DNA of 61,798 bases from a virus (lineage: Duplodnaviria > Heunggongvirae > Uroviricota > Caudoviricetes), in IMG/VR virus record IMGVR_UViG_3300033233_000007; one strand, 5' to 3'. A program made the position numbers and the translations under genes. Position 1 is the first letter of the stretch. Each line of letters begins with the position of its first letter. Below the pieces are notes generated by a model that saw only the letters and a list, made by a program, of their open reading frames with translations, was not told where the DNA came from and did not search any database. Below are positions 4,621 through 39,397 of this stretch, piece by piece.

Positions 4621-4657
4621 ATTTGTGGACGTATGGGGAACCAAAGGTCTTGAGACG

Positions 4658-5219
4658 ATGCCTGCCGAAACATATAGCCCGAACGTAACGCTCGCCGACA
4701 TCCCGGCGTCGCGCTTCACGGAAGCAACCATCGGGAAGATGCACCAGTTCGTGCTCGGCGCGGTTTGCGATCCCCACTTCCAGGACCTCGCTTCCAGCAT
4801 CGTCGGCAAGTGCGCCAACAAAGACTACACCTGCGAAGCCAATACCATTTTGAAAGCCGTGAAGTCTCTGGTCCGGTACGTGCGCGATCCCCACGAAGTC
4901 GAACTGATCCAGTCACCGTGGATCACGCTCAGGCGCCGGGCCGGAGACTGTGGATCGGCCCCTCGCGGCGACGCGGGGGGCAAGACGCGACGACATGACA
5001 ACCTTGGTCTCTGCGCTGGCGTCCGCGCTCGGGCACCAGTATCGCTTCGTGACGATCAAGGCCGATGCGCAGAGACAGGCCGAGTGGTCGCATGTCTATC
5101 CCGAGATCATGGTCGGCGGCAAGTGGCTTACCGCCGATGCGTCCGTGGGTCGCAGCTACCTCGGCTGGGAGCCGGAGAAATATTTTGCGAAGGCCGTGTG
5201 GCCGGAGCCGAAACGCTGA
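4658..5219 (+). CDS. Transglutaminase-like cysteine protease interrupted by a 37-nt insert at the catalytic Cys
   Basis: VRYVRDP..GDC in one frame, DDMTTLVSAL..HVY..W..AD in another; removing 37 nt restores GDCDD. Confidence 0.8.
4950..4986 (+). other. 37-nt hairpin insertion (GTGGA...AGAC) with GCGA tetraloop
   Basis: GCCCCTCGCG-GCGA-CGCGGGGGGC stem; boundaries ambiguous by a few nt. Confidence 0.75.
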
Positions 5220-5258
5220 ATGCTCGGACACTGAGGAACAAGGTCGCAAAGCCCGTGT

Positions 5259-6026
5259 ATGGCTAACTTCGAAGCCGACATACCGCCCGACGTTTTCGGC
5301 CCCGAGATGGTCGGAAGCGACAGGGCGCTGGCGCCGCGACTGACGCTCCGTCACGTCCCCGACGGCGGCGATCTCGTCCTGCGCGCCAACGCCGGAGAGT
5401 CCTCGACGGGCCTGCCCATCCTCTCGGGCGCCCGCGGCACGGAGCGCCGGCAGATCAACGCCGCCGATCAGGAGCTTCCGCATTTCCGGCCGCCGACGGC
5501 GACGTGGCAATCCCAGGTTCCTCTCTACTCCGCTCAGGCGTGGCAGGTCCCGCCGGTCGTCACCGGCATTCCCAAGTTCGGCAGGTCCGTCGATCAGTTT
5601 TACGTCCCCGAAGGTGAGATTCTTGACCTGATGTCCCGTGACCTTATGCCTCAGCCTTACGAGGCGACGGCGATTGTTCCCGTTCCCTCTGGAGGAAACA
5701 TGCAAGGATTCGGACAGGAGTTTGACCAGCAGGCCGTGGCCGAAAAGGCGATCGTCGACGTCGGCATCAAGCCCAGTGACCCGTGGTGGCAGCAGGCCCT
5801 CAACGTCGCGCTCGGCACGGTGCAGACCATCACCGCACAGAAGCAGCAGGTGGCCGATCAGAAGGCGCGGGAGCGGGAACTCGAGCTTCAGATTCGCGCG
5901 CAACAGGCGGGACTCACCATCCCCGGTCTGGCGCCCAAGGCCGGTGCACTGTCATCGCCGTGGGTTCTCATTCCCGTTGTCGGGATCGCCGCCTACCTTA
6001 TTTACACCCAGGTCGCCAAGCGTTAG
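5259..6026 (+). CDS. Putative virion membrane protein, C-terminal TM; possible internal start at 5700 (MQGFGQ)
   Basis: C-terminal hydrophobic helix plus basic tail; GGAGG before internal ATG. Confidence 0.75.
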   Translation: MANFEADIPPDVFGPEMVGSDRALAPRLTLRHVPDGGDLVLRANAGESSTGLPILSGARGTERRQINAADQELPHFRPPTATWQSQVPLYSAQAWQVPPVVTGIPKFGRSVDQFYVPEGEILDLMSRDLMPQPYEATAIVPVPSGGNMQGFGQEFDQQAVAEKAIVDVGIKPSDPWWQQALNVALGTVQTITAQKQQVADQKARERELELQIRAQQAGLTIPGLAPKAGALSSPWVLIPVVGIAAYLIYTQVAKR

Positions 6027-6988: not shown

Positions 6989-9039
6989 TGGCCACCATCG
7001 ACGCAGACCTTCGCGAGCACCTCGGCCCCGACGCCGTGCCGCAGAGCATCGAGCGCAATCCGCTTCTCATGGCGGTGAGAAACCCGGTCGAGATCACGCC
7101 GGCAAACGTGGAAGACTACGGCGGGCGATATATCGAGACGACGCACGGCGACATGAAGATGACCCACTACGGCCCCGGAAGTTTTTACATCACGCTCACG
7201 CCGATCGTGAAAGGCGAAAAAGCGACCCGCGATCTCACGTGGGGGCCTATCGGCAAGAACAAGGCGATTGAGATCATGAACCGCCTCATCTCGGACAAGC
7301 CGCTTCGCGGAAATCCGATCCAGTGGACGCCGGGCGTCGGATACGAAGACGTGCCGGCGCGCGGAAATCGCATCATCGGCCAAGCGACGTCTCATGTCGT
7401 GAAACGTCCCTTTGGTCGCAGCTACTACTATTGGAGTTGGAAGGGTCAGACGGCCCCGCGCGGCCCCGTGGGGGCTGCAGGTTTTCTGACAGGCGACGAG
7501 ATGATTGATATGCAAACTGGGGAGGTGTTCGTGCGCGAAAATCCGCTTCTCATGGCCGTGTCAAACCCCGGTCCCGTCGAAGTCACGTTCGTGGACCAAA
7601 CGGGGACGAGGACCGTGCGCGCCCGCGTCGGCGGCGACGTCACGGTCCGCAGCATCCTGCCCGCGATCATCACGCGCATGGGCCTGCCGACGACGAGTCC
7701 TGACGGCCAGGCCATGAGCTATTCGCTGGATTACAAGGAAGGCGGGGTCCGCCTTTTGGAAGATCAGACGCTTGCAGACGCCGGCGTCGTCACGGGTCAT
7801 CACCTCATTGTCTTCCCGGAGATCGTGGCGGGGAATCCTGTACATGTTTGCTGCAATCCGCGCACGGGCGTGTGCGACAACCCGCGGCATAGAAATCCGC
7901 TGGACGCTAGAGAAAAATCCGACGTCATCAGCCGCGCGGCTTCCGCATACAGCCGCTCCGCCGTCGCTCCTCGAAGGATCGACGCGGAATACTATCGCGG
8001 GTACGGCCGCGGCATGATGGACGTCGCGGACAGGCATTCGGCCGCGGAGACATATTATCCCGTCGCCGCCAATCCAAAGCGCGCGGGCGGCGTTACCGTT
8101 CTTCCGTACCGCTGGATCGCATCTCTCGAAGAGGCCGGGATCAGGGTTCCTTCCTACGGAGTTTCGGGTCACATGGCCGCTTTCAAGAGGCCCGTGCCTC
8201 TGGCCCACGTCAAGACTATGCTTGAAGAGTACGCGCAAAAGAAGTTGAAGGGACTCCCTCGAGTGGCAGACTTTCTGACCAGGCAGGAGCGGAAGGCGGT
8301 TATTCGAGGAATGATAGATCGTGCGCTTCGCGATGCCGAAACGGGGCAGTTTCATGAAATCGAGAGAGCTTCCGGCGGCTCCAATCCGGGTGAAGACGCC
8401 CTCTTCGACAACCCCTACTACGTCGCCCACCGCGAGGCCATGCCTGCGGAGACCGACATCGTCCGCAGCCTTCGCCGTCGTCGCGACACCTTCCAGCGGT
8501 TTGAGCGTGCGCCGGGGCCCCGCTACGGCGGCGCCGTCGGGCCGTTCCGCACGGGCGACGAGGCAATCGACAGTTGGGGATGGGCCGCGCCTATGGCGAG
8601 GGGCGATGAAGAGCGTGAGATGAGGGTCGCCGCCAACCCGACGCTCGCCGCGGCGCCGTTTCATCCCGGAAAGAAAATCTCCGTAGGCGAGTTCGAGTCG
8701 TGGCTCTCCGCAAACGGCAACCCCGAGGAAAAGCGCGAGTACGAAAGGTCCAAAGCCGCGTACAAGAAGTTTCATCTTGGCGCGGAGCCGAAGTCCATCA
8801 CCCGCGAAGTCATGGACGTCGGCCTGAACCACGGCGTCGTCACGGACCGCGGCTTCGGCTACGGGCTGGGGCAGTCCACGCATGAAACGTACTTCGCGCC
8901 GAAGAATTCGAAAAAAGCGGGCACGGTCTACGTGCACAAATGGGGAACCCGACCCGAGGCCATTGCGACTTCGGACGGCCGGGTCATCATGAAGCCGCTT
9001 AAAGGCACGGCCAGGATCGACGACTGGCTGCGCGGTTAA
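6988..9039 (+). CDS. Asn-Pro-punctuated polyprotein containing a ubiquitin-like domain (7567-7833)
   Basis: 14 NP dipeptides; VEVTFVDQTG..YSL..QTLADAGV..LIVFPEIVAG resembles EsaB/YukD-type Ubl. Confidence 0.8.
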   Translation: MATIDADLREHLGPDAVPQSIERNPLLMAVRNPVEITPANVEDYGGRYIETTHGDMKMTHYGPGSFYITLTPIVKGEKATRDLTWGPIGKNKAIEIMNRLISDKPLRGNPIQWTPGVGYEDVPARGNRIIGQATSHVVKRPFGRSYYYWSWKGQTAPRGPVGAAGFLTGDEMIDMQTGEVFVRENPLLMAVSNPGPVEVTFVDQTGTRTVRARVGGDVTVRSILPAIITRMGLPTTSPDGQAMSYSLDYKEGGVRLLEDQTLADAGVVTGHHLIVFPEIVAGNPVHVCCNPRTGVCDNPRHRNPLDAREKSDVISRAASAYSRSAVAPRRIDAEYYRGYGRGMMDVADRHSAAETYYPVAANPKRAGGVTVLPYRWIASLEEAGIRVPSYGVSGHMAAFKRPVPLAHVKTMLEEYAQKKLKGLPRVADFLTRQERKAVIRGMIDRALRDAETGQFHEIERASGGSNPGEDALFDNPYYVAHREAMPAETDIVRSLRRRRDTFQRFERAPGPRYGGAVGPFRTGDEAIDSWGWAAPMARGDEEREMRVAANPTLAAAPFHPGKKISVGEFESWLSANGNPEEKREYERSKAAYKKFHLGAEPKSITREVMDVGLNHGVVTDRGFGYGLGQSTHETYFAPKNSKKAGTVYVHKWGTRPEAIATSDGRVIMKPLKGTARIDDWLRG

Positions 9040-9050
9040 GAAAAGGAGGC

Positions 9051-10517
9051 ATGAAGATGCTCGAGATGTTCGTGTTAAATCCTCCTCCGCGAAGCGCCAA
9101 ACGCAGGCGCAGCCGCCGGAATCCGTGGGAGAAAATGCGGTCTCCCGGACGTCGGTTCTGGCGGTTCCGCGGTCGGAAGGGGCAGTTCGCGAAGCGGTCG
9201 GCAGGCAAGATGAGAATGAATCCGCGCCGGCGCCGCCGGAAGAATCCGTGGGTCCACCTCACCCGCCCCGCTCGCACGTTCTACCGCTATCGCGGAGCCA
9301 AAGGAAAGTTCCGCAAGCGCGTTCGCCGTGGTCGCGCGAGCGCCTACGGTCTCAACGCTCCCCGTCGACGCCTGCGTAGGCGTCATGCGGTGCGCCGTCA
9401 TCCTCGGACGGTGTCTCGCAGGAATCCAAGGTCGAGGAAACATGGAGGCAGCAGAATGGCCAAGCGTGCCACTCGGCGTCGCCGGGGAACCCGTCGGTCG
9501 TATCGGAGGAATGCCGTTCTCCCGATCCCGGCCAACGTCAACCCGCCGCGTCGCCGCTCTCGCCGCCGCTACCGCAGTAACGCCAAGCGTGGATGGGCGC
9601 TTTACCGCTATCCCGCCCGTTCGGCGTACCACTACGGCGGCTCTCGCGGCAAGTTCATCAAGCGTCGCAAGGGCAAGCCCAGCGCCGCCGCGGCCGCGAC
9701 CGTTGTCGCGAATCCGCGCCGGCGTCGTCGGCGTCACTACGCCGCCAACGTCAGCCGATCCGCCCCCCGTCGCCGTTACGCCAAGCGCCGGTCCCACGCC
9801 CGCCGCAATCCCTATCGCGGCCCGTGGAGCTACCGCCGCAAGGCGTATCGCGTTCCGGGTGGTCGCATCCGCGTTCGCCGGCACCACTACCGCAAGCCGG
9901 GGTATCGCCGGAATCCGATCCTGCCGTTCCCCGTCGAGGTCGGCCTGAACCCGTACGCGGGTAACAACGTCCTCGCGGGTGTCGTCGCCCCGTTCCAGCG
10001 GGCCATGGACTTGTCCTTCGTCACCGGAGAACTCCTGCCCATGGCGGGCGGTTACTTCGGCTCGAAGGCCGTGGGTCGCATGGCCACGGACCTCGTGGGC
10101 GTTCCGTACGACGGCGTGTACAAGTACGTCGCCAACCTTCTGGGCGCGGGCGTCCTTTCCACGGGCGTCAGCATGTTCCTGAAGGATTCGGCGATGGCCA
10201 GTCGCGTCCTCGGCGGAGGCCTGTTCGCGATCTTCGTTGACCTGCTGAAGGATATCGGCGTCACCGGCGCTCTCGGCATCGGCGACCTCGGCGACATCAG
10301 CGATTCGATGAAGAGTCAGATCGTCGACAGCGTCCGCGCGCAACTCCACGGCACGGACGACTACCTCACGTACGAAGCGTACGGCGGTTCGCCTCGTCTG
10401 GCGGACTACGCGTCGGCGGAAGCCCTCAACGCCGCGCCTCATCTGGCGCAGGCCGCGGGCGGCGTCGCGAACATGTCGACCTACGTTGACGAGTTCTCCG
10501 ACGCTCAGTTGGTGTAA
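9051..10517 (+). CDS. Arg-rich protamine-like core protein with RRNP repeats and C-terminal membrane domain
   Basis: Extreme Arg content in N-terminal 60 percent, 10 NP sites, hydrophobic helices C-terminally. Confidence 0.8.
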   Translation: MKMLEMFVLNPPPRSAKRRRSRRNPWEKMRSPGRRFWRFRGRKGQFAKRSAGKMRMNPRRRRRKNPWVHLTRPARTFYRYRGAKGKFRKRVRRGRASAYGLNAPRRRLRRRHAVRRHPRTVSRRNPRSRKHGGSRMAKRATRRRRGTRRSYRRNAVLPIPANVNPPRRRSRRRYRSNAKRGWALYRYPARSAYHYGGSRGKFIKRRKGKPSAAAAATVVANPRRRRRRHYAANVSRSAPRRRYAKRRSHARRNPYRGPWSYRRKAYRVPGGRIRVRRHHYRKPGYRRNPILPFPVEVGLNPYAGNNVLAGVVAPFQRAMDLSFVTGELLPMAGGYFGSKAVGRMATDLVGVPYDGVYKYVANLLGAGVLSTGVSMFLKDSAMASRVLGGGLFAIFVDLLKDIGVTGALGIGDLGDISDSMKSQIVDSVRAQLHGTDDYLTYEAYGGSPRLADYASAEALNAAPHLAQAAGGVANMSTYVDEFSDAQLV

Positions 10518-12647: not shown

Positions 12648-13535
12648 ATGATCCCGACTTATGTCGGCGAGAAGGGCCCGGACGGCCAGATCACCCGCGC
12701 CTGGATTAACCCCGCCAAGCGCCACGTCCGCCCGTACTGGCTGACGACCGAGCCCGACACCATTCTGGTTCCGCCGCTGACGACGAGCCTGCCGCAGATC
12801 ATGCCCATCGACACGCAAGGGCATTTCGAAGCGTTCTCCGTCTGGTTCCAGAGCGATGGGCCTTTCACGGTCACGTTCTTCGACCCCAGTAACGGCCGCT
12901 TCTGGCAGAACCGCGAACTCCACATTAACACCGTGGCCGGCGGAAACCTCGCGACGGTCGGCGGCGGCGCGTCGACGTTCGGCTTCATCCTCCCCGAAAG
13001 CTACTTCTTCAACGTCGAGGACGCCGCGCGTTCGCTCCTCGTGGCGTACCGCGACCTTTCGGGCGTCGCCAACAACATCCGCATGCTCCTCTTCGGCCGC
13101 CGCATCTACAACCGCGAAAGCTCGCCGGACGTGCAGGAAGAGTTCCGCAAGCTCTATCAGAGGAAGGAGCGCACGACCGCCTACTTCCTGACGACGGACC
13201 TGCCCGTCGTTCTTCCCGCGTCGGCCGCCGTGACGACCTTCCAGATCAGGAATACCGACGAAGCGGACATGGAGGCTTTCAAAATCACGGCATCGTCGAC
13301 GGCGCCTTTTGCGTTCCGCCTCCGCGACCGCGCGTCGAACCGCACGCTCTCTAACGGCTTCATCCACCAATTTAACGGCGCCGGCAACGGCTTCGTGCCG
13401 TTCGTGCTGTCGAGCGCGGAGACCTGGCTGATCGAACGCAACTACCAGGTGGAGGTCGACTTCATCAACCTCGTGCCGCTGGCGACTAACACGGTCTTTT
13501 TCACTTTGAGCGGACGGAGGCTCTACTATGCCTAA
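12648..13535 (+). CDS. Putative tandem (double) jelly-roll capsid protein
   Basis: Internal duplication: (P/A)Y(W/F)LTT..FEA/MEA..N....G...N....L.GRR(I/L)Y twice; start at AAGGAGG RBS. Confidence 0.65.
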   Translation: MIPTYVGEKGPDGQITRAWINPAKRHVRPYWLTTEPDTILVPPLTTSLPQIMPIDTQGHFEAFSVWFQSDGPFTVTFFDPSNGRFWQNRELHINTVAGGNLATVGGGASTFGFILPESYFFNVEDAARSLLVAYRDLSGVANNIRMLLFGRRIYNRESSPDVQEEFRKLYQRKERTTAYFLTTDLPVVLPASAAVTTFQIRNTDEADMEAFKITASSTAPFAFRLRDRASNRTLSNGFIHQFNGAGNGFVPFVLSSAETWLIERNYQVEVDFINLVPLATNTVFFTLSGRRLYYA

Positions 13536-29339: not shown

Positions 29340-29837
29340 ATGGCCCGCTACACAACATCGATCGTCGACCGCATCCTTGACGCCGTGGCCGGGCTTGCCG
29401 AAAAGCCGTCAGGCCGGGCCTGTGATGAGGCCATCGTCGACGTCGTGGCCAGTCACACGTCCCATAATCCGCTGGCCGACGCGGCGCTGGCTTTCGACGC
29501 CTACTACGACCACGGTGATGAAGAGGGGACGCTCGACAGGATCGAGGAAGCCGCGCGGGTTGAAGAGCACAGGATCGAAGAATGGCTTAACGATGATCCG
29601 CGCGTGGAGGAGATGGAAAAGAAGTACGACGTCCAAATCACGTTCACGCTCGACTGGGAAGGCGATGGGTTTTATCTTCACGCCGCCATTGAAAGGCCCG
29701 ACGCCGAAGAGGAGGAAGAAGAGGAGGAAACTGAAGTCGCGGCCAACCAGGGTTCGCTGCCCGGCGAAGATGTGCCTGAAGAGGACGAAGAAGAGGACCC
29801 GATAGCCGAAGAAATGCAAGAGAATGACGAGGACTAG
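29340..29837 (+). CDS. Highly acidic protein (possible DNA mimic)
   Basis: D/E-rich. Confidence 0.7.
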   Translation: MARYTTSIVDRILDAVAGLAEKPSGRACDEAIVDVVASHTSHNPLADAALAFDAYYDHGDEEGTLDRIEEAARVEEHRIEEWLNDDPRVEEMEKKYDVQITFTLDWEGDGFYLHAAIERPDAEEEEEEEETEVAANQGSLPGEDVPEEDEEEDPIAEEMQENDED

Positions 29838-30269
29838 GTGGCCAAACACTCCGAATACATTGCTGCCTTCGGTTTTGAAAAGGGCGAAGCAATTTTCAAG
29901 GCCATGCGGAAAGAGCTTGGCGATGACGATCGTGACCGCACGGATTCCGTTGACGCCGCGCTGGACGCCGTCGGCGAAATTTTGGGCGGCTCCGGCGTTG
30001 AGGCCATTAACGGAGAGCATGAGGAGCACGTCGACAGTTACTACCTCGACATTATCTTGCTTTACGTGAACATGGGCAATCCGTACGTCACGACGGTTCT
30101 CTACGATACGCAGGCCGACAGCTTCCTCGTCGGAAACTGGGGCGGCTGGCTTGAGGCGTATCAGGCGGAGATGGAGGAAGAACCTGAAGAGGAGCGCGGC
30201 CTTTTTGATGAAGACGATCCCGCTGAAGACGATCCCGCTGAAGACGAGAGTGTGGAGGAAACCGCTTGA
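29838..30269 (+). CDS. Acidic protein with ERGLFDE tag
   Basis: NMGNPYVTTVLY..F..GNWG core; tag at 30192-30212. Confidence 0.7.
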   Translation: MAKHSEYIAAFGFEKGEAIFKAMRKELGDDDRDRTDSVDAALDAVGEILGGSGVEAINGEHEEHVDSYYLDIILLYVNMGNPYVTTVLYDTQADSFLVGNWGGWLEAYQAEMEEEPEEERGLFDEDDPAEDDPAEDESVEETA

Positions 30270-31303
30270 AGCATCGTAGCCGCATTCGCCGTAACCCATG
30301 GACCGAGTCCATGAAGCAGGCGCTCGGCGGCTATACCCCCAACGGTACGCCCGTCCGCGTTCTCGGTCGCCATGGGCTCGAAGGCAGAATCGAATGGCAG
30401 CGCGGCCGGCCCGACCCCGGCAGTCGCCCCGTCGTCGGACACGGCGCGGAGGTTTTCTTCAAAATCATCTTCGACCAGCCGATCCCGCTACGGGCGTATA
30501 TCGACGCCGTCGGCCACCATGACGTGCAGCGCACGCTCGACAGTCTGGCGTCTATGGGCGCGCTTCCGCCGCAGGCCACGATCCGCATGACCACGGACGA
30601 AGCTCTGTTACGCGGAACGCAATCGTTGCTCAGGGCCAAGCCTGTTGAGCAGGTTTTGGCCATGGGCATTCTCATCACGTTCGTTATTGCGCCATGGCGG
30701 GCGGTCAAGGTCAACCTCGAAAAACTCAAGCAGATGTGGTTCGTTGAAATCACCAGCGGCACAGGAAGCCTTCATGAAAAGCTCATGGTCGTGCCCGCGC
30801 GGTTCGTCGGGCCATATACGTGGGAAGGCGGCAGCGGCTGGCGGTTCGAACTCATCGATCCCGAGTACGCTTCAGCGTGGCAAAAAGAATTCGGCCCCGT
30901 GACGGACGCGGTCAAGGGGACTTACAGCGATTATGTCGGCTTTGTGCCTCATGCGTGGGTCCGGCTGATGGAAAAAGCCAAGGTCAAACTGCCGGCTTAC
31001 ACGGTCAGGAACGAGGGGACGCGTGAACCTATCGCCGCTTTCGCCGAGCCCGTGACGATAGATGAGATCACTCTCGTCTTCGACAAGTACGCCGAGAGAG
31101 TACCGTGGGCCAAGGAACTGTCGTCGGAGGCGATGACAATAAAGAAAAACAAAACTCTTCGAGACATCCTTCAGCTTTTTGTTGTTAGCATCCGCGACAG
31201 CGACCTTCGCAGTTACGCCATCCGACCGCTCCGGGACGAGTACGCGCAGTCGCTCATCGCCGAGTTCACAGGCGTCGAGACGGGTGAGTTCGAAATCACG
31301 TAA
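30266..31303 (+). CDS. Hypothetical protein with N-terminal RRNP
   Basis: ORF. Confidence 0.7.
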   Translation: MKHRSRIRRNPWTESMKQALGGYTPNGTPVRVLGRHGLEGRIEWQRGRPDPGSRPVVGHGAEVFFKIIFDQPIPLRAYIDAVGHHDVQRTLDSLASMGALPPQATIRMTTDEALLRGTQSLLRAKPVEQVLAMGILITFVIAPWRAVKVNLEKLKQMWFVEITSGTGSLHEKLMVVPARFVGPYTWEGGSGWRFELIDPEYASAWQKEFGPVTDAVKGTYSDYVGFVPHAWVRLMEKAKVKLPAYTVRNEGTREPIAAFAEPVTIDEITLVFDKYAERVPWAKELSSEAMTIKKNKTLRDILQLFVVSIRDSDLRSYAIRPLRDEYAQSLIAEFTGVETGEFEIT

Positions 31304-31314
31304 TTGGAGGACCT

Positions 31315-32190
31315 ATGCCCCGCTATGATATCGGAGTACGGACGAACAAAGGACGCATGCAGGTTTTCAGTATCAACGCCGGCAGCGCCGCCGAGGCCAA
31401 GGCCAAACTGCGTAAGCGCCTCTACGCCGACAATCCCTCCCGCGGCAAGTACGTCCGTGAGCGCAAGGCCGACCCCACGCTCTTCGACCATCGCAGCTTC
31501 AGGACGAAGACCGTGAACGACCATCGCGTCGTCGTCGCCTGCCCCAAGGGGAAGTGGAACGCGCGTACGGGTCGCTGTACGGTCGGCATGCGCGCGCAAA
31601 CGCTCTTGCATCCCATGAAGAAAGGCGTGAAGAGGAATCCGGCCGAGTACACGATCGGTCGCGGACCTACGGAACGGAGGATCAGCGCGGCGCAGAAGCG
31701 GCGGATGGCGTGGAATCCTCGATCAAAAAGAATCACGGCGGAATATGCCATTCAACAGGCTTTCCTGTACGCGAGAGACGGACTCACGGGGGGCGCGGAA
31801 GAATGGCTCCAAATGGCCGTGAGACGTGGTGCGTCACCGTCAAAGGTCGCTGGAGTCAAGCGTTCTATAACGACCGCGAGAGAAAAGCGAAAGATTCGGC
31901 AGAGTTGGGAGCGCGAAGCCGTTCATAAAAACCCCGCCGAACTCGATCCCGTAAACGGCGGCGCCGCATTCGAGCAGGACTGGCAGGCCTTCGAAGAGGG
32001 CGCCATCTACAAGATCGCCGCCCGGTACGACAGCTTCAAGCCGCAGTACGCCAAGAGCCAGACGGAGATGACGCGGACGTTCCGCGAGTTTTCGAAGAAG
32101 TACCCGCAGGAGCGAATCGACGTCGTTGACATGCGGGCGCCGCGTCACGTCATGGAGAACCCGCCACGAGGCATCGAATTTCTCGACTAG
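31315..32190 (+). CDS. Basic NP-punctuated polyprotein
   Basis: 5 NP sites separating short modules. Confidence 0.7.
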   Translation: MPRYDIGVRTNKGRMQVFSINAGSAAEAKAKLRKRLYADNPSRGKYVRERKADPTLFDHRSFRTKTVNDHRVVVACPKGKWNARTGRCTVGMRAQTLLHPMKKGVKRNPAEYTIGRGPTERRISAAQKRRMAWNPRSKRITAEYAIQQAFLYARDGLTGGAEEWLQMAVRRGASPSKVAGVKRSITTAREKRKIRQSWEREAVHKNPAELDPVNGGAAFEQDWQAFEEGAIYKIAARYDSFKPQYAKSQTEMTRTFREFSKKYPQERIDVVDMRAPRHVMENPPRGIEFLD

Positions 32191-32196
32191 GAAGAC

Positions 32197-33603
32197 GTGA
32201 CCAGAAATCCCATGTACGAATCCCCGCGCAGTCGCCGGCTTCGCTTCGACCTCGAGGGCATGAAGCGCTTGAAGGCGGAAAGTACGATCTTCGGCTTCAC
32301 GGCGACCGGCGATCCGCCGGAGCGGTATGTCGTCACGTTCAAAGGCAAGAGTTTTTCCGGGCCCGATAAGGTCGTCAACCATCAGGAAATCGAAATCGAC
32401 CTGGGTGCGGAGTACCCCCGAGGCATGCCTAACATCCAATGGAAGAGCAAAGTCTTCCACCCCAACATTTCGTCAAACGGCGGCGTGTGCCTCGGCAACT
32501 ACTTCTCCGAGTGGTCGCCTGCAGCCGGCGTCGTGGGCATCTGCGGCATTCTCTGGGACATGGCCCGATGGGCCAACTTCAACATCAACAGCCCCTATAA
32601 CGGCGACGCCGCTATGTGGTTTCGCCATCAAACGAAGTACCGCTTCCCCATTGACGTGCGATCCCTCAGAGACAAGGTTGACCCGCCATCGGACGCCGTG
32701 TCATCGAAGCCCGCGTGCGCGTCGCCGCCGGATGAGGATATTCTTATCATTGAGAATCCGCCTCCTCCGCTTCAGGACGGCGACCGCGTTCGTCATCTCC
32801 GAAAAGAGGGATGGGTCGGCACGGTCGAGCACGTTGGCCATCCTATCGGCGGGTTTAAGGGCGTGTCGGTTCTGTGGGATCACCAAGCCATGCTCGGGCC
32901 CGACCCATCGGTGCGGCCGTCCGATGTCGTGAAGATTTCGGAGAACCCGCGTGTGCCTCGGTCGGGCAAACCGAGATCGTGGATGCCGAAGATGGTGCAG
33001 TGGAGTTTCCACGAGCCCGCGGCAAAGGACATCCAAGCCCATCTCCGTTCTTTCGGCCTTTACGCCGACATCTCGATGCAAAGCAGACGCATCCGCGAGG
33101 AGCCGTACGTCGAACACGTCTACAGGGTCATCGTACCCGCGTGGCAACTCGATCAGGCCAAGAGAATCCTGAAATCTGGAAAACACGGATGGAACCCGCT
33201 GACCGCGGACGAGCGCGCCACCCTTCAGCGCCGCAGCGCCTCTTTCGCCCGCCGTGCCGACGACTACCCGCTCGACACGCCGCACCGTGCTTACTGGACC
33301 GCGCGGCAACATGAGGCGAGGACGTTGTCGGAAGCGGCGGACGTGGCCGACCTCGAACTGCCCAACGCCGTCGCCGCGAATCCCGACGACCTCTTCTGGA
33401 AAGTCCGCGACTGGCTCGACAATCTTTCCGACATCGCCGACCTCCATAGAGAGAAGTACCCCCACGAGTCCGTGAAGACCGCGCTGCGTTACGCCGAACG
33501 CGTCATGCTCTCCCGCTATGGCCGCCCCGATCCCGAGTTCTTGAAAGAGGCCAGGCGGCAGATCGGAGAACTCAGAGAATTCGCAGAGTCGGAGGGAGCG
33601 TAG
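32197..33603 (+). CDS. NP-punctuated polyprotein with N-terminal E2/UBC domain
   Basis: EYPRGMP..FHPNISSNGGVCLG (catalytic Cys codon 32488-90)..SPYNGDAA. Confidence 0.9.
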   Translation: MTRNPMYESPRSRRLRFDLEGMKRLKAESTIFGFTATGDPPERYVVTFKGKSFSGPDKVVNHQEIEIDLGAEYPRGMPNIQWKSKVFHPNISSNGGVCLGNYFSEWSPAAGVVGICGILWDMARWANFNINSPYNGDAAMWFRHQTKYRFPIDVRSLRDKVDPPSDAVSSKPACASPPDEDILIIENPPPPLQDGDRVRHLRKEGWVGTVEHVGHPIGGFKGVSVLWDHQAMLGPDPSVRPSDVVKISENPRVPRSGKPRSWMPKMVQWSFHEPAAKDIQAHLRSFGLYADISMQSRRIREEPYVEHVYRVIVPAWQLDQAKRILKSGKHGWNPLTADERATLQRRSASFARRADDYPLDTPHRAYWTARQHEARTLSEAADVADLELPNAVAANPDDLFWKVRDWLDNLSDIADLHREKYPHESVKTALRYAERVMLSRYGRPDPEFLKEARRQIGELREFAESEGA

Positions 33604-33604
33604 C

Positions 33605-34600
33605 GTGGACGACTGGAAGTGGTATCAACTGAAGTACGACGTGGCTTCCAATACCTACGTCGTCGCTAATCAGATTCTCTCGTGGGCGACGCGCGTTTTT
33701 CCGCACGAGCTTGAGCAGTACGGCATCCATTCCCAAAGCGACATCGCCGCCGACGCCAGACGCCGCCCCGGCGTGTGGATGCTGTTCTTTTCGGACCAAG
33801 TAGACCGCGGGCTCTTCGACGAGAACCCCTACAGCCCGAATCTCACGTACCATGAGGCCGAAGAGCTTTTCGCCAAGGCGCGGAAGCACTACAGAGACGT
33901 GCCTGTATTCGAGATCAGAACCGTCGAGCCCGAAGACCTCTTCGGCGAAGAGCGCACGGAGCGCGTGAAGGTCGGCACGAAGCGAGAGCTTTCCGTCCAA
34001 GACATGCGCCGCCCGCTTGGCTCGAACACATGGCTCGAGAAGCGCGACGGCGATTACGCGGTCAAGCTCTACTGGACGGACGTCGTGACGGTTCATCCCG
34101 ACGGGACCTATACGATCCAAACGGGCGGCTGGCATACGAACGTGACGAGAGACCGGATCAACATGATTCTGCAGCACCATGGCCTCAATGTCTGGAGCCG
34201 GAGAGTGCGCACGGGCACAAAGGTCGTCCCGCCCGATGAACTCTTCGGCAGAGAAAGGCGGATCGGCCAATACGAGACCGACTGGTGGGTCTTCCGCTAC
34301 GACGGAAAAGACTGGCAGCCGACGACGCCTGTTGGAGACGGCGTGCGCATCGACGCCATGGGCCGGAAGATGCCGTGGCTTCATCGCGTTCAAAGGTTCC
34401 ACCGTAACCCCGGAGACAACGTCGATCGTGCGTACGGCCGCTGGCAGGAGACCATGAAGCTCCGCAAGCGCTGGCCTTTCAAGAGCCCGCCGCCTCATCC
34501 CATGTACACGGCACAGGAGATCGCCGGCATGGAGCGCTTGAGTGATGAAGAGACGCAGGAGCTTTACGCCATGGCGCGCAAGGCGCTGGGGGCGGTGTAG
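33605..34600 (+). CDS. Polyprotein with GLFDENP junction
   Basis: Second module has TGGWHTNVTRDRIN motif. Confidence 0.75.
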   Translation: MDDWKWYQLKYDVASNTYVVANQILSWATRVFPHELEQYGIHSQSDIAADARRRPGVWMLFFSDQVDRGLFDENPYSPNLTYHEAEELFAKARKHYRDVPVFEIRTVEPEDLFGEERTERVKVGTKRELSVQDMRRPLGSNTWLEKRDGDYAVKLYWTDVVTVHPDGTYTIQTGGWHTNVTRDRINMILQHHGLNVWSRRVRTGTKVVPPDELFGRERRIGQYETDWWVFRYDGKDWQPTTPVGDGVRIDAMGRKMPWLHRVQRFHRNPGDNVDRAYGRWQETMKLRKRWPFKSPPPHPMYTAQEIAGMERLSDEETQELYAMARKALGAV

Positions 34601-35907
34601 TGGAGGCGTTCGAAAGGGAAGAGTATTTCTATAAGGACGCTCCGCCTCTCGATCTGGGTAACTGGCATCGCAGTAACGATTACTGGTATTCGCACGGGCG
34701 GTACGACATCAAAACGTTCAAGGGAACGGAGTTTGAAACGGTCTATGGGGATAAATGGATTCTGGCCGGGCCACCTAAAGGCCGGCACATCGCTTATGCC
34801 GATCGACCCGATCAACTGACGAAAAAGGCGCACGATCATTATCACGAAGGATTCGGCCTCTTCGACGAGAACCCCTGTGTCGATACGCGCCGTACTGGAC
34901 GATTCAGGTTTGTTGGATGGGCATACTCCCCCGGTTTTCATTCAGTCAGCGCTGTCTTTGAAGACCCCGAAGGCGCGAGCACCGGCTTCTTTTTCTACAC
35001 GTCCGTGGGCCAGCACGCAGAGGCGGGTCATAAATATGTTACGCATCTTCCTCGAAGGGAACGATGGGTAAGCCGTGTAGAAGCAGAAAAGCTCGATCCC
35101 TCGACCGTCACCGAAGTGACGAGCATGTACGGACGGATACCGGGTGTGGGTGAGGGTGGTCTCTTCGACGAGAACCCCGTTGACCCGCCGAAGCGCGGCC
35201 AGGCTTACACGGTCGGTAGAGACTACGACAGGCTTTGGGTCATCGGCGTCGAGCCGCGTCGTTACGAAAATGTCGTCAGGCTCAGCACAAGGGCGCCGAC
35301 GGCGCGCAGAAGCTTGGACGTGATTACACACAGCTACACCCTTGCCAACTTCATGTCACTCGTTCAATCCGGCTGGTGGCGTCGTGCGCCCGAAAGAGAC
35401 GTGGAGCGCGGCCTCTTCGATGAGAACCCCGCCCGACCCGACTACAACGTCCTGCCAGTGTTCGCCAGCGCTCCCATCACCGGCTACATGGACGGCGGTC
35501 GCGTCAAAGAGCGGTTCCTCAATCACGCGGCAAACTACCTTCGTACGGTTGGCCGTCACCTGCTCGCGCGCGGCATGTTCGAGCAGAGCGTCCATATCAA
35601 CCGCGGCGGCGTCGCCGTCAGTGGCGAAGTCTACGGTGAGTTCCGCTCGTCGCATGAAGACGTTGGCGTCTTCGTGGAGATTTCATCGACGCCCGTGTTT
35701 CAAAACCGGCCCGACAGCGTCATCATCCGCGCGGTCTGGCGGGCTCGAAGGCGCGAGCGTATGCACACGCCGGAAGGCCGTAACAACTGGATCGTCGCTA
35801 ACAGAAATGCCGGCGACTTGGCTAACGATCTTTACGGCCTGCAGCGCCTCGGCGTCCGAGAAGGCGTGGCGCAAGGCGTTGAAGATCGCGGCCTTTTTGA
35901 CGAGTAG
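34600..35907 (+). CDS. Four-module polyprotein (3x GLFDENP, terminal RGLFDE)
   Basis: Junctions at about 34855, 35158 and 35404; tag 35884-35904. Confidence 0.8.
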   Translation: MEAFEREEYFYKDAPPLDLGNWHRSNDYWYSHGRYDIKTFKGTEFETVYGDKWILAGPPKGRHIAYADRPDQLTKKAHDHYHEGFGLFDENPCVDTRRTGRFRFVGWAYSPGFHSVSAVFEDPEGASTGFFFYTSVGQHAEAGHKYVTHLPRRERWVSRVEAEKLDPSTVTEVTSMYGRIPGVGEGGLFDENPVDPPKRGQAYTVGRDYDRLWVIGVEPRRYENVVRLSTRAPTARRSLDVITHSYTLANFMSLVQSGWWRRAPERDVERGLFDENPARPDYNVLPVFASAPITGYMDGGRVKERFLNHAANYLRTVGRHLLARGMFEQSVHINRGGVAVSGEVYGEFRSSHEDVGVFVEISSTPVFQNRPDSVIIRAVWRARRRERMHTPEGRNNWIVANRNAGDLANDLYGLQRLGVREGVAQGVEDRGLFDE

Positions 35908-35910
35908 AGC

Positions 35911-36192
35911 ATGACCCCCACCGAACTCATTCTCATGGCCAACAAGCACTACCCGGAAGGGTTTCTCCTTCGGTATTTTGACGAAAGGACGGGTCGTAAG
36001 AAGGAGGGTCACGGTGACACGCTGGCGTTCTCGATCGTCTTGAACCTCGTGGAGACGTTTGACGAGTCCCTGACGAGCGAAGACCAGGCCGCTGAAGGCG
36101 TTCGCGTCATCGACAGCTTGGTCGACGATCTCGAGCGCGTCAAGCGGGGGCTCCTCGCAGAACCGCCGGAAAGGGGCCTGTTCGATGAGTAG
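35911..36192 (+). CDS. Hypothetical protein ending ERGLFDE
   Basis: ORF. Confidence 0.75.
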   Translation: MTPTELILMANKHYPEGFLLRYFDERTGRKKEGHGDTLAFSIVLNLVETFDESLTSEDQAAEGVRVIDSLVDDLERVKRGLLAEPPERGLFDE

Positions 36193-36856
36193 TCCAAGAA
36201 AACCCTACTACACCGACGCCGAGTATCAAAAGCTAGCGGAGGAGGCTGTGGCTCGCTATGCCCCCAGCGCCCGCGAGGCCCGGTCCTTTGCGTACCGCGG
36301 CGACCTCCCGCTCGGCAAGACGTGGGCGTACACGTTCGGCATGAGTCGCGACAGCGGTCTTCTTGAGCAGAGCAACTTCGACGTGATTTCGCAGAACCTC
36401 AAGGAAGCGTTCCCCGAAGACGTCGAGATCGAACGATCTAGCCATTGGGCCGTCGGATGGATGGATCAAATTGCCGTTCACATGCTCGACGATAGCGGCC
36501 GCGCCACACCTGCAGGTCGTCATGTGCTGGACTGGAAGGCGAAGCTCCTGGACTATCCCGTGGCGGACGAGGAGCACTACAGCGAACGGCAAACCGAAGC
36601 CACGTTCGAGAATATCGTCAGCGCTCTTGGAGATGTCGGGTTCACTCGCGGAGACAGCAAAATGAAAGAAGTCGCTGGAGAGGTTTGGCAGTGGTTCTCC
36701 GACAACAACGAGCGCGCCCTTGACGACGTCGACGATCAGGGGGGCTACCCGAGCGAAGAAGAGACCAGAGAAGCCCTCAAGGACCTCGACTACTTCGAAA
36801 CCGACGATGGATGGGTAAAAGAGCGCGGTCTCTTTGATGAACCTGTGGAGGACTAA
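36185..36856 (+). CDS. Acidic protein (HWAVGW motif) ending ERGLFDEPVED
   Basis: ORF. Confidence 0.75.
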   Translation: MSSPRKPYYTDAEYQKLAEEAVARYAPSAREARSFAYRGDLPLGKTWAYTFGMSRDSGLLEQSNFDVISQNLKEAFPEDVEIERSSHWAVGWMDQIAVHMLDDSGRATPAGRHVLDWKAKLLDYPVADEEHYSERQTEATFENIVSALGDVGFTRGDSKMKEVAGEVWQWFSDNNERALDDVDDQGGYPSEEETREALKDLDYFETDDGWVKERGLFDEPVED

Positions 36857-37362
36857 TGCGTACAAACCCCGTTCAAATTCGTCGCGTCTACGTCAAGACG
36901 ATGATCGATGAGAATCCTGATCTCTCGCATCTCGGCAAGTACAGCGACACGCCTGGACCTTATGCCATTGATCGCGAGGAGCGCGGAGACATGAGGCGCG
37001 GCGAGTTTCGCTACTGGAATCCCGCCATGACTGCTGAAGAAACGGGCAACCCCGATTCCGTCGAACAGGACTACAAGCGCCATGAAGCCTACGGCGATGA
37101 TCTGTGGCAGGCCATGGGTATCCGAGCCTGCGCTGAAGTCGTGGCGGGCGACACGACTCAGACGATCTGTTCGGCGGGACTCTGGGGAATCGAATCGGAT
37201 TCTGAGCCCACGTACTTCACGGGAGTTGCCGAAGAGCAGCTTGAGGAACTTTACACGATCCTCCAAGACTTCGGTATCCCTCAAGCCAGATCGCGATCCG
37301 TTCGCGTCGAGTACCCGGAAAACATCGAGCCGGCTGAGGAGCGGGGGCTGTTCGATGAGTAG
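36856..37362 (+). CDS. Acidic protein (GLWGIESD motif), MRTNP start, ERGLFDE end
   Basis: ORF. Confidence 0.75.
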   Translation: MRTNPVQIRRVYVKTMIDENPDLSHLGKYSDTPGPYAIDREERGDMRRGEFRYWNPAMTAEETGNPDSVEQDYKRHEAYGDDLWQAMGIRACAEVVAGDTTQTICSAGLWGIESDSEPTYFTGVAEEQLEELYTILQDFGIPQARSRSVRVEYPENIEPAEERGLFDE

Positions 37363-37933
37363 GAATCCGAAGACGTACAGCTATGATGACCTTGAGTGGC
37401 ATGCCGCTGAGAAGGCGCTTGAAGGGGCGCGGGAGCGCGGCTACGGCGGCGAGCTTGAGGAGGATGATGTCCGCGACATCATCGAGTTCACCCTCAAGTC
37501 CTACGGCTTCCGCGTAGAGGACCCCGAGCGCGGTATGCAGTGGGAGATCGACTTCATGCGGCCCGGAGACTCGCATGTAAAGTTCAGCGCGCTTGTCGCC
37601 GACATACCGAAGTTCTTTGCGGCTCATAAGGGCCTCGCCGTGGAGCCCGAAAGTCTGTTTGAAGAGTTTCTCGACGAAGACGCCATCTCCTTTGTTCGCG
37701 TGAACATGGACGGGTCCGTAGACATTTCACTCAAGGACGATGACCTGACGGACGACGAACTGGAAGACTTGTCGGCTATTGAAGAAGAAGTAGAGAAAAT
37801 TGCCGACGATGCGGGCAATAAGGCCCTCTGGGCCGTCGTCAAGGAGTACGAGGCCCGTAACAGCGACAAGGCCGTCGAAGAGCGGCTCAGGAAAGAGAAG
37901 ACGCGCTTTACGGAAGAAGGAAGGTTCGCGTGA
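37355..37933 (+). CDS. Acidic protein, MSRNP start
   Basis: ATG embedded in upstream GATGAGTAG. Confidence 0.75.
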   Translation: MSRNPKTYSYDDLEWHAAEKALEGARERGYGGELEEDDVRDIIEFTLKSYGFRVEDPERGMQWEIDFMRPGDSHVKFSALVADIPKFFAAHKGLAVEPESLFEEFLDEDAISFVRVNMDGSVDISLKDDDLTDDELEDLSAIEEEVEKIADDAGNKALWAVVKEYEARNSDKAVEERLRKEKTRFTEEGRFA

Positions 37934-37998
37934 TCCGGCATAGACGCTGGAAAATTCCATCGCAAGAACTACAATAAGAGCCGCTCAAAAGGGGAACC

Positions 37999-38193
37999 AT
38001 GGAGACAATTTTCATGCACGACACCGCCAAGCTCAGTGCCCGCGTCATCGAGCTTCACCGGAGCTATAAGTTCGAAGACAAGATCGCGGCGATCCTCATG
38101 GACCGCAGCATGGGCACCGCGGGCCTGGCCGAAGCCGACGCGCGTGAGAAGGCTTTGCATATCATGGCCATGTACGCGTCGGAGCGGCGATGA
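37999..38193 (+). CDS. Hypothetical protein
   Basis: RBS plus coupling. Confidence 0.55.
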   Translation: METIFMHDTAKLSARVIELHRSYKFEDKIAAILMDRSMGTAGLAEADAREKALHIMAMYASERR

Positions 38194-38840
38194 ACCATTT
38201 GACGCTCGCGGATATTGGCGCCGCACCCGCGCGGCCCCAATATCCGAGCAAAAAGCTTGAGGAGATGACGGAAGCCGAGCTTTCGATCTTCCGCAAGCGC
38301 TGCACGATCGCCGTCGAACTCGCCGCAGCGAAGACGCGAAAGAAGGTCGCCGACGCAAAGGCCGAGCGATTTGAAAACGAGGCCCGTCAGGTCCTTTCGG
38401 AATTCAACAGGCGCCTGGACGAACTCTACAAGGGCCGGTGGACGAGCGGGCAGCAGAAGGCCCTGTACGACTGGTGCGCGGCCGAGTTTGAGAAGCACCG
38501 TGTGGTCGTCCGCAAAGCTCGCGCGGAGTCTGAAAAGGCTGGAGACATCATGAACAAGCAGGCCTTGGCCTGGGTCAAGGCAGACCCTCGTGCGCCGGTC
38601 TACGCCGCCCTCGTGCGGAGTCTGTACCCGACGGGAGAAGACGTTCTGGCCGTCTTGGCCCTGTGTCCCCGTTTGTTTCTCATGAAGAAACCCGCGGCCG
38701 CCGCATTTCCCCTGCCGCCCGTCGCTATTCCAGAGCCGCCGACCGTTGTGACGCCGTTTGAGCCGTCGCCGCTTGTCCCTGCGTCGATCCAGATCGTCCG
38801 GTGGCCGGCGCCTTCGACTTTTTCGATGACCAGGCCATGA
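38190..38840 (+). CDS. Coiled-coil hypothetical protein
   Basis: ORF. Confidence 0.65.
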   Translation: MNHLTLADIGAAPARPQYPSKKLEEMTEAELSIFRKRCTIAVELAAAKTRKKVADAKAERFENEARQVLSEFNRRLDELYKGRWTSGQQKALYDWCAAEFEKHRVVVRKARAESEKAGDIMNKQALAWVKADPRAPVYAALVRSLYPTGEDVLAVLALCPRLFLMKKPAAAAFPLPPVAIPEPPTVVTPFEPSPLVPASIQIVRWPAPSTFSMTRP

Positions 38841-39109
38841 CCGTCTGGATTCTCCACTATTCGCACAAGCGCGGCGACGACATCACCGTGTACGGCAATC
38901 AAGATTCGGCGCTCTTGGCCGCCGTAGAGATCATCGACAGATGGAGCGACGAAGAGATCGCTGACGACAGCATCGAGGCCGAGATCAAGGCGCTCGTGCG
39001 CCGGCGACGCTATGCGGAGGCCATCGGGCTCTACAACGAAAGCACGGGCGAGAACATCGCGGTATCCAAGTACGAGGTTCACGGGCCTCCTGAGGGGCTT
39101 TTCGAATGA
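38837..39109 (+). CDS. Hypothetical protein ending PPEGLFE
   Basis: Tag variant. Confidence 0.7.
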   Translation: MTVWILHYSHKRGDDITVYGNQDSALLAAVEIIDRWSDEEIADDSIEAEIKALVRRRRYAEAIGLYNESTGENIAVSKYEVHGPPEGLFE

Positions 39110-39369: not shown

Positions 39370-39397
39370 TTGACGCGCCTCCACGCCGGACTATAAT
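39370..39397 (+). promoter_or_regulatory. Sigma70-like promoter TTGACG-N16-TATAAT (leaderless mRNA)
   Basis: ATG 7 nt downstream of -10. Confidence 0.65.

What the first reader, a model, noticed from the sequence alone, without database searches (positions are those of the whole stretch)
30192..39109. Shared ERGLFDE tag on a cluster of unrelated cargo-like proteins
Seen: (E/D)RGLFDE or GLFDE occurs at 30192, 33803, 34855, 35158, 35404, 35884, 36169, 36821 and 37339, plus the variant PEGLFE at 39092; related RGLFEE near 2058 and ALFDNP near 8398. Codons vary (ctc ttc gac / ctt ttt gac / ctg ttc gat), so selection is on the peptide. The tagged domains are acidic, unrelated and typical of host-takeover genes, yet lie in the late arm. 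Known analogy: T4 internal proteins use a capsid-targeting peptide. Inference: a docking/encapsidation signal loading a toolbox of proteins into the virion for co-injection.
Basis: partly seen in the sequence, partly recalled or inferred. Interest (0 to 1): 0.85.

Follow-up and report, generated by a model that had tools for sequence, protein, structure and literature searches.

The report
Shared GLFDE end-tag on viral proteins
A large uncultured jelly-roll-capsid virus ends at least eight unrelated accessory proteins or protein modules with the same five residues (Gly-Leu-Phe-Asp-Glu), most likely a common handle that docks them to one partner, possibly for loading into the virus particle, although no partner has been found.

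Summary
GLFDE occurs 9 times in + strand coding frames between 29.8 and 37.4 kb, against 0.011 expected and at most 1 in 5000 shuffles. A GLFE variant ends a tenth module.

Four copies are the last residues of a protein, two lie 4 and 18 residues from the end, and four are internal. Every internal copy is followed by Asn-Pro.

The only close relative found (a 2.8-kb contig) keeps all seven comparable tags. They show no amino-acid change and 10 of 35 codons changed synonymously, while neighbouring modules fall to 22-28% identity.

Three tagged families have many homologues elsewhere: 277 and 95 proteins, plus stand-alone forms of a third. Only this lineage carries the tag, so it is an added appendage.

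The tagged genes form the far end of the long operon that holds a double jelly-roll capsid gene, a transglutaminase-like cysteine protease and Arg-rich Asn-Pro-punctuated polyproteins.

My best reading (about 40%) is a C-terminal docking handle, exposed by a stop codon or by cutting before Asn-Pro, that recruits cargo to the particle. No receptor was found and no cutting is shown. One variant lies in the other arm.

This scan noted Asn-Pro seams before in other viruses, but not this tag.

The parts
29838..30269 (+). Gene A, 143 aa, acidic (pI 4.05). GLFDE at 30198-30212, 18 acidic residues before the stop.
33605..34600 (+). Gene B, 331 aa, two modules. GLFDE-NP seam at 33809-33829 after a 73-aa first module. 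The second module carries a weak Kyano_Gp96/phrog_19389-like stretch.
34600..35907 (+). Gene C, 435 aa, four modules each ending in GLFDE. Internal GLFDE-NP seams at 34855-34875, 35158-35178 and 35410-35430; terminal GLFDE at 35890-35904, then the stop. Module 4 (residues 276-435) has stand-alone untagged homologues elsewhere.
35911..36192 (+). Gene D, 93 aa, acidic. GLFDE at 36175-36189 forms the last five residues. The start codon of the next gene lies inside the tag codons (GATGAGTAG).
36185..36856 (+). Gene E, 223 aa, member of a widespread roughly 200-aa family. GLFDE at 36827-36841, four residues before the stop, in a lower-confidence tail beyond the folded core.
36856..37362 (+). Gene F, 168 aa, member of a widespread viral family. 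GLFDE at 37345-37359 forms the last five residues, on an extension absent from 93 other homologues.
38837..39109 (+). Gene G, 90 aa as called on the identical contig. Ends with the variant PEGLFE (GLFE at 39095-39106).
2058..2075 (+). Tag-like RGLFEE inside an acidic, Pro-rich linker of the 692-aa coiled-coil protein (1530-3608).
8398..8415 (+). ALFD-NP seam inside the 683-aa Asn-Pro-punctuated polyprotein (6988-9039) that also holds the Ubl module.
32197..33603 (+). Untagged neighbour inside the cluster: UBC-type E2 domain followed by further modules separated by Asn-Pro. The protein starts MTRNP.
39370..39397 (+). Strong sigma-70-like promoter match (11 of 12) just after the last cluster gene. 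It marks the end of the long operon that contains the tag cluster.
12648..13535 (+). Major capsid protein with a double jelly-roll fold. Context only: it shows what kind of particle any cargo would enter.
4625..5266 (+). Interrupted transglutaminase-like cysteine protease gene. The intact 175-aa orthologue is in relative L036. Candidate seam-cutting enzyme.
9051..10517 (+). Arg-rich protein with ten Asn-Pro seams and a hydrophobic C-terminal part. Candidate core protein that uses the same seam.

Best explanation
GLFDE is a short linear peptide motif that marks the C-terminal end of a protein module. In this virus lineage it has been added to at least eight unrelated accessory proteins or modules. 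It becomes the free C-terminal tail in one of two ways: a stop codon follows it, or, in fused proteins, the chain is cut just before the Asn-Pro that always follows it. All tagged products would therefore carry the same flexible handle, which docks them to one common receptor. Because the genes sit at the end of the capsid operon and share the Asn-Pro seam with Arg-rich core-like polyproteins, the most likely use is recruitment of a set of accessory proteins into the assembling particle for delivery with the DNA. Shown: the motif, its selection at peptide level, its lineage-specific addition, its position at module ends, and its operon context. Inferred: cutting at the seam, the existence of a single receptor, and particle loading.
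For: 1. Non-random and selected as peptide. GLFDE is seen 9 times against 0.011 expected. In the syntenic relative L006 all 7 comparable tags are kept with no amino-acid change. Ten of 35 tag codons differ synonymously. The terminal tags differ at 9 of 20 codons, close to the 40% background for conserved residues.
2. The tag outlasts its surroundings. Modules 1-3 of protein C are only 22-28% identical with many gaps, yet their GLFDE-NP seams are invariant.
3. It is an added appendage. Family E (277 proteins at E <= 0.001; the best 120 were listed and inspected), family F (95) and the stand-alone homologues of module C4 lack it. Only the window and L006 have it.
4. It lies in a flexible tail. 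In the E model the core has pLDDT above 90 and the tag tail 67-73. Structural matches to F's Atlas model reach at most residue 156 among the viral clusters with TM 0.52 or higher, 12 residues short of the end.
5. It marks module ends. Four tags are followed directly by a stop and all four internal ones by Asn-Pro. The free Ubl gene ends in VAG and a stop exactly where the fused Ubl is followed by Asn-Pro. This argues that seams mark natural C-termini and are cut before Asn.
6. Late, particle-linked context. There is no strong promoter between 25 kb and 39.36 kb, and a strong one right after the cluster. The same operon holds a double jelly-roll capsid gene (Z 12.0 to the STIV capsid protein), small proteins with hydrophobic, apparently membrane-spanning C-terminal segments (read by eye, not run through a predictor), a cysteine protease, and Arg-rich Asn-Pro polyproteins.
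7. A homologue of module C4 in another element lies among SSB, ArdC-N, ParB-N, SNF2 and DnaN genes. That is an anti-restriction and replication neighbourhood, typical of proteins needed at entry.
Against: No receptor was identified. No proteomic or expression data exist for this uncultured virus. Only two genomes carry the tag, so co-variation with a partner cannot be tested. A PEGLFE variant ends an unrelated small protein in the opposite-strand, early-looking arm upstream of the window. Two tags are not at the extreme C-terminus, with 4 and 18 residues following. If the particle has an internal membrane, as many small membrane proteins suggest, it is unclear how soluble cargo would get inside. 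Functions of the tagged proteins remain unknown: E has no fold match and there are no Pfam hits.
Confidence: 0.4

Rival explanations
1. The tag is a binding motif for a hub that works in the cytoplasm, not in the particle. Candidates are a sliding clamp, a RecA-fold ATPase or recombinase, or another host or viral hub. The tagged proteins would be brought to replicating or incoming DNA rather than being packaged.
For: In other viruses, E-family proteins carry different tails at the same position. These resemble beta-clamp-binding motifs: QLKLF, Q-x-R-F-W-P, and a terminal DQLLLF. In relative L001 a neighbouring winged-helix-like protein starts with QVGLFD. LFDE is also the name-giving core of the second RAD51-binding module of BRCA2 BRC repeats, which occur in multiple copies per protein, as in protein C (bioRxiv 10.1101/2020.05.14.097071). 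One tag variant lies in the early-looking arm.
Against: The clamp motif's Gln is absent: the equivalent position is E, D, G, P or F in all 17 tags of the two genomes. No FxxA module precedes any tag. No clamp or recombinase gene was found in the window. Expressing eight such proteins from the far end of a capsid operon is hard to reconcile with a replication role.
Confidence: 0.25
2. GLFDE is only the upstream half (positions P5-P1) of a protease recognition site at a subset of Asn-Pro seams. Its presence at true C-termini would be a leftover of former fusions.
For: All internal copies are followed directly by Asn-Pro. Hydrophobic-x-Glu before the cut resembles the T4 gp21 rule, Leu/Ile-x-Glu (established knowledge). 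A cysteine protease is encoded in the same operon.
Against: Most Asn-Pro seams (64 Asn-Pro dipeptides, about 27 expected) have quite different upstream residues such as RR, VAG and AA. GLFDE is therefore not needed to define a seam. The terminal tags, which have nothing to cleave, are kept without a single amino-acid change while their silent sites drift at the background rate. That would not happen to a relic.
Confidence: 0.1
3. The tag is a recognition mark for the virus's own ubiquitin-like system (two Ubl copies and a UBC-type E2), or a degradation or timing signal.
For: The E2 gene lies inside the tag cluster. Ubl copies exist free and fused. Short hydrophobic stretches flanked by acidic residues are how SUMO- and Atg8-type Ubls are bound (established knowledge).
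Against: There is no direct evidence. No conserved acceptor lysine sits next to the tag.
Confidence: 0.1
4. The sequence acts mainly at DNA level, as a junction for swapping gene cassettes, with no role for the peptide.
For: The four internal seams are almost identical as DNA (GGN CTC TTC GAC/T GAG AAC CCC). They differ from their L006 counterparts at only 1 of 15 tag codons against 40% background. The modules between them are barely alignable between the two relatives.
Against: Terminal tags use many synonymous codons and drift at the background rate, yet never change the peptide. Recombination at seams may well occur in addition, but it cannot explain the terminal tags.
Confidence: 0.05

Closest known systems
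T4 internal proteins (IPI-III, Alt) with the capsid-targeting sequence
   Same: One short peptide shared by unrelated proteins encoded with late genes. It works together with a head protease that cuts after Glu in a hydrophobic-x-Glu context. The cargo acts at the next infection (PMC3012670, PMC7697877).
   Different: The T4 signal is N-terminal, about 10 residues long, is removed, and targets a scaffolding core in an HK97-fold head. Here the tag is C-terminal, five residues long, apparently retained, and the capsid protein is a double jelly-roll.
Encapsulin cargo-loading peptides
   Same: A short, flexible C-terminal peptide on otherwise unrelated cargo proteins docks to the inner face of an icosahedral shell, and it can be transferred to foreign proteins (PMC8229669).
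   Different: The consensus differs (Gly/Ser/Leu-rich rather than acidic Leu-Phe) and the shell is HK97-fold. No shell binding was shown here.
Polyvalent proteins of phages and conjugative elements (Iyer et al. 2017, PMC5512222)
   Same: Strings of unrelated modules are encoded near virion genes and are predicted to be processed and delivered with the DNA. A homologue of one module lies beside ArdC-N, SSB and ParB-N genes.
   Different: Those proteins are defined by known enzymatic domains and zincin-like peptidases, and no common end-tag has been described for them. Here most modules are separate small genes with a strict shared tag, and the candidate protease is transglutaminase-like.
Adenovirus-type maturation in double jelly-roll viruses (precursor proteins pVI, pVII and mu cut by a packaged cysteine protease)
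   Same: A double jelly-roll capsid, Arg-rich core precursors, a cysteine protease in the structural operon, and short terminal peptides of precursors that dock inside the capsomer (established knowledge).
   Different: The adenain sites, (M/I/L)XGX-G, are unrelated to GLFDE or Asn-Pro, and the protease family differs. Nothing is known for prokaryotic members.
C-terminal substrate signals of type IV and type VII secretion, read by FtsK-like ATPases
   Same: Unstructured C-terminal tails with acidic and hydrophobic residues on unrelated substrates are recognised by a hexameric FtsK/HerA-class motor (PMC6954902).
   Different: The sequences differ and those are cellular secretion systems. No protein translocation by a viral packaging motor is known.
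LFDE module of BRCA2 BRC repeats
   Same: The same four residues, in several copies per protein, bind a groove on a RecA-fold ATPase.
   Different: That protein is eukaryotic, its motif is helical and paired with an FxxA module that is absent here. A four-residue identity can be chance.

Membership tests
T4-type capsid-targeting sequence | Located at the N-terminus and removed by the head protease | tested here: not met
   All tags lie at or near C-termini or at the C-terminal end of internal modules.
T4-type capsid-targeting sequence | Virus with an HK97-fold head and a scaffolding core | tested here: not met
   The capsid protein model matches double jelly-roll capsid proteins: STIV Z 12.0, rmsd 4.2, 234 aligned; PRD1 P3 Z 10.3.
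Encapsulin cargo-loading peptide | Short flexible C-terminal peptide on unrelated cargo | tested here: met
Encapsulin cargo-loading peptide | Binds the inner face of an HK97-fold shell protein | tested here: not met
   The shell protein here is a double jelly-roll. Binding itself could not be tested.
Beta-clamp-binding motif (QL[SD]LF / QLxLxL) | Gln at position 1 | tested here: not met
   The equivalent position is E, D, G, P or F in all 17 tags of the window and L006.
Beta-clamp-binding motif (QL[SD]LF / QLxLxL) | Leu-Phe hydrophobic pair near a protein terminus | tested here: met
Beta-clamp-binding motif (QL[SD]LF / QLxLxL) | Binds the hydrophobic cleft of a sliding clamp | not tested
   No clamp gene was found in the window, and the rest of the genome is not held.
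Polyvalent proteins | Two to fifteen domains of disparate known activities in one polypeptide | tested here: inconclusive
   B and C are multi-module, but their modules have no recognised domains. The E2 protein is multi-module with one known domain.
Polyvalent proteins | Zincin-like metallopeptidase for processing | tested here: inconclusive
   No such Pfam hit among the proteins scanned. A transglutaminase-like cysteine protease is present instead.
Processed viral polyprotein | Demonstrated cleavage at the junction motif | not testable with these tools
   Support is indirect only: the free Ubl ends where the fused one meets Asn-Pro, and terminal tags end where internal ones meet Asn-Pro.
BRC-repeat RAD51-binding peptide | FxxA module about 20 residues upstream of LFDE | tested here: not met
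   No FxxA precedes any tag.

The most novel reading that the evidence does not exclude
The GLFDE tail is a translocation signal read by the virus's HerA/FtsK-type packaging motor or another vertex machine. Tagged proteins would be pumped into a membrane-lined double jelly-roll procapsid in the way type IV and type VII secretion ATPases recognise C-terminal tails. This would be a viral protein-loading mechanism with no described precedent.
Probability: 0.08. Interest if true: 0.9.

Novelty: new variant of a known kind. Interest (0 to 1): 0.62.

Why it matters
Shared targeting peptides are known for T4 heads, encapsulins and secretion systems. None is known for prokaryotic double jelly-roll viruses, whose internal proteins are almost unstudied. 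Here the signal is unusually clean: five invariant residues at module ends, added to families that lack it elsewhere. It comes with a simple rule, stop codon or Asn-Pro, that predicts the mature ends of each product.

This makes an open question directly testable. A single peptide could be used to fish for the receptor. The predicted C-termini (GLFDE) and N-termini (Asn-Pro) can be looked for by mass spectrometry.

It also ties the widespread but unexplained Asn-Pro seams of many uncultured viruses to a concrete processing model. If the tag loads cargo, it would be a compact tool for packaging foreign proteins.

Tried and rejected
1. Co-folding of tagged protein D against the capsid protein, the intact protease of relative L036 and the free Ubl in one job gave no verdict. 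It says nothing either way.
2. The whole genome is not held. The record behind the loci cannot be searched. Walking with exact-protein look-ups reached only 8.5 kb upstream and 1.1 kb downstream of the window. The replication genes and the reported HerA/FtsK ATPase could therefore not be examined for tags or used as partners.
3. IMG/VR held no exact copy of the locus. A degenerate GLFDENP DNA pattern gave 23 single hits in unrelated proteins and no second multi-tag virus.
4. No near match among cultured phages. Protein searches of E, F and module C4 against phage and plasmid collections gave nothing useful.
5. Pfam and PHROGs gave no function for any tagged protein.
6. The E model found no convincing fold in the PDB: Foldseek E >= 0.03, best VIA Z 4.6. 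ESM Atlas look-ups were uninformative.
7. The distant relatives L002 and L004 share only family E and show no recurring tail motif on other proteins. Their neighbouring proteins did not match the capsid profile.
8. No Walker A motif was found in any plausible gene of the window.
9. Sequencing-run search: only the probable source sample, and no RNA holder listed.
10. A literature search for the motif found only the BRC-repeat LFDE module.
11. A pure paralogue-family explanation was rejected, because the modules are mutually unrelated once the tag is removed.


Full report
**The observation.** Six-frame translation shows GLFDE nine times, always in the + strand frames of long ORFs with coding-type GC3. 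The sites start at 30198, 33809, 34855, 35158, 35410, 35890, 36175, 36827 and 37345. A tenth gene ends with PEGLFE at 39092-39109. RGLFEE (2058) and ALFDNP (8398) are also present. Composition predicts 0.011 copies in the roughly 13,000-residue + strand proteome. No within-protein shuffle out of 5000 gave more than one copy. GLFDE is the commonest 5-mer apart from Gly runs. Codon choice varies among copies. After stripping the tag, the carrier modules show no significant similarity to one another. Two details of the finding need correcting. Several tagged modules are basic rather than acidic. The invariant core is GLFDE, while the preceding E/D-R is only a preference.

**Anatomy.** The tag always closes a module.
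- In four genes the stop codon follows directly: 34600-35907, 35911-36192 and 36856-37362, plus the GLFE variant at 38837-39109.
- In two genes, 4 or 18 acidic residues follow.
- The four internal copies (one in 33605-34600, three in 34600-35907) are each followed by Asn-Pro.

Asn-Pro is itself over-represented, 64 against 27 expected. It is concentrated in a few proteins of the same operon: the 683-aa polyprotein with a YukD-type Ubl, an Arg-rich protein with ten Asn-Pro, the 291-aa basic protein and the E2 protein. Three genes start M-x-x-N-P.

The free Ubl gene found 8.5 kb upstream of the window ends in VAG and a stop. This is exactly where the fused Ubl is followed by Asn-Pro. In both cases the natural C-terminus of a module abuts Asn-Pro when modules are fused. 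This is what one expects if seams are cut just before Asn. The cut itself is inferred, not shown.

**Conservation.** The only close relative found is a 2.8-kb contig (L006) that is syntenic for five genes. All seven comparable tags are intact with no amino-acid change, and the residues just before G vary.
- Ten of 35 tag codons differ, all synonymously.
- At the four terminal tags 9 of 20 codons differ. This matches the 40% background for conserved residues in the same genes, so selection acts on the peptide.
- In protein C the first three modules are only 22-28% identical with many gaps, while their seams are invariant. Module 4 is 68% identical.
- The internal seams are nearly fixed as DNA, 1 of 15 codons changed. 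I read this as possible extra recombination between seams, a secondary point.

**The tag is an appendage.**
- Family E (36185-36856) has 277 homologues at E <= 0.001; I inspected the 120 listed. Most are about 200 aa and end right after the folded core. Only the window and L006 continue into GLFDE.
- Family F (36856-37362) has 95 homologues, and again only these two carry the tail.
- Module 4 of protein C exists elsewhere as stand-alone genes of 152-169 aa without the tag.
- In the E model the core has pLDDT above 90 and the tag tail 67-73. Structural matches to F's Atlas model reach at most residue 156 among the viral clusters with TM 0.52 or higher, 12 residues short of the end.

The motif therefore behaves as a short linear motif on a flexible tail, acquired independently by unrelated proteins in one lineage.

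**Context.** The cluster (29340-39357) is tightly packed. It has no strong promoter match inside or upstream back to 25 kb, and it is followed at once by an 11-of-12 promoter match at 39370-39397. Upstream in the same operon lie several relevant genes.
- A protein modelled at pLDDT 94 matches double jelly-roll capsid proteins: STIV Z 12.0, PRD1 P3 Z 10.3, also PBCV-1 and PM2.
- Several small proteins there end in hydrophobic, apparently membrane-spanning segments; I read these by eye from the translations and ran no predictor.
- A transglutaminase-like cysteine protease gene is interrupted here but intact in relative L036.
- There are also the Arg-rich Asn-Pro polyproteins.

This is a tailless, PRD1/STIV-type virus of unusual size, not a T4-like phage. 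A stand-alone homologue of module C4 in another element lies among SSB, ArdC-N, ParB-N, SNF2 and DnaN genes. That fits a role at DNA entry or early replication.

**Interpretation.** The facts fit a common C-terminal docking handle. Placing entry-type accessory proteins at the end of the capsid operon makes most sense if they are loaded into particles, as with T4 internal proteins, P1 Dar proteins and polyvalent proteins (PMC3012670, PMC9024508, PMC5512222). I put this at about 0.4.

Several points count against it. No receptor is known. Only two genomes carry the tag. A PEGLFE variant ends an unrelated small protein in the opposite arm. Soluble cargo would also have to enter a particle that probably has an internal membrane.

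The main rival (0.25) is a cytoplasmic hub motif. E-family proteins of other viruses carry clamp-binding-like tails at the same place. LFDE is also the RAD51-binding core of BRC repeats. However, the clamp motif's Gln and the BRC FxxA module are both absent. Protease-site-only, Ubl/E2-linked and DNA-junction-only readings are less likely, for the reasons given under the rivals.

**Novelty and prior notes.** Asn-Pro seams were noted before by this scan in other uncultured viruses (e1-5309875, e1-5328175, e1-5360282). A DNA-fixed shuffling junction was noted in another phage (e1-5339016). Shared targeting peptides are a known kind of device. A C-terminal one in a prokaryotic double jelly-roll virus, coupled to a seam rule that predicts mature ends, is a new variant. 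Its function remains to be shown.

Noticed in passing
window 12648-13535: The capsid gene models as a double jelly-roll (STIV Z 12.0, PRD1 Z 10.3) and has 207 relatives in the representative library. At 125-144 kb, this would be a very large prokaryotic virus of the PRD1/STIV type.
   Followed up: partly
window 7045-7090 and 7540-7585, compared with L036 5133-6266: The seam peptide NPLLMAV(R/S)NP occurs twice in the 683-aa polyprotein, flanking a roughly 150-aa module and preceding the Ubl. The relative L036 has one copy and neither module. Whole modules seem to be inserted at seams.
   Followed up: partly
window 36180-36192 and 37350-37362: The start codons of genes 36185-36856 and 37355-37933 lie inside the Asp-Glu codons of the preceding tag (GATGAGTAG). 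The tag end therefore doubles as a translational coupling site.
   Followed up: no
window 33930-33960 and 34240-34270 (gene 33605-34600): A second short repeat, P-(E/D)-(D/E)-L-F-G-(E/R)-E-R, occurs twice. The two copies flank the stretch that weakly matches Kyano_Gp96 and phrog_19389.
   Followed up: no
L033 5571-5831 (- strand), about 2.7 kb upstream of the window start: An 86-aa protein in the opposite arm ends with PEGLFEEADV. It shares only the PEGLFE hexapeptide with the unrelated gene 38837-39109.
   Followed up: partly
proteins P0006-P0016 and P0026 (family E homologues); L002 10001-10642; L004 10001-10711: In other large viral contigs, family E proteins carry acidic, Pro-rich linkers ending in D-P-x-Q-x-x-(L/F)-x-(P/F/W) or DQLLLF. 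These resemble beta-clamp-binding motifs.
   Followed up: partly
window 39370-39397: Near-consensus sigma-70-type promoter (TTGACG, 16-nt spacer, TATAAT) in the gap after the tag cluster.
   Followed up: no
window 34600-35424, compared with L006 191-868: The three short modules of protein C are barely alignable between the two relatives, although the flanking genes are 63-71% identical. They are either replaced cassettes or evolve very fast.
   Followed up: partly
L001 10561-10923: A winged-helix-like protein next to the family E homologue starts with a clamp-motif-like QVGLFD near its N-terminus.
   Followed up: no
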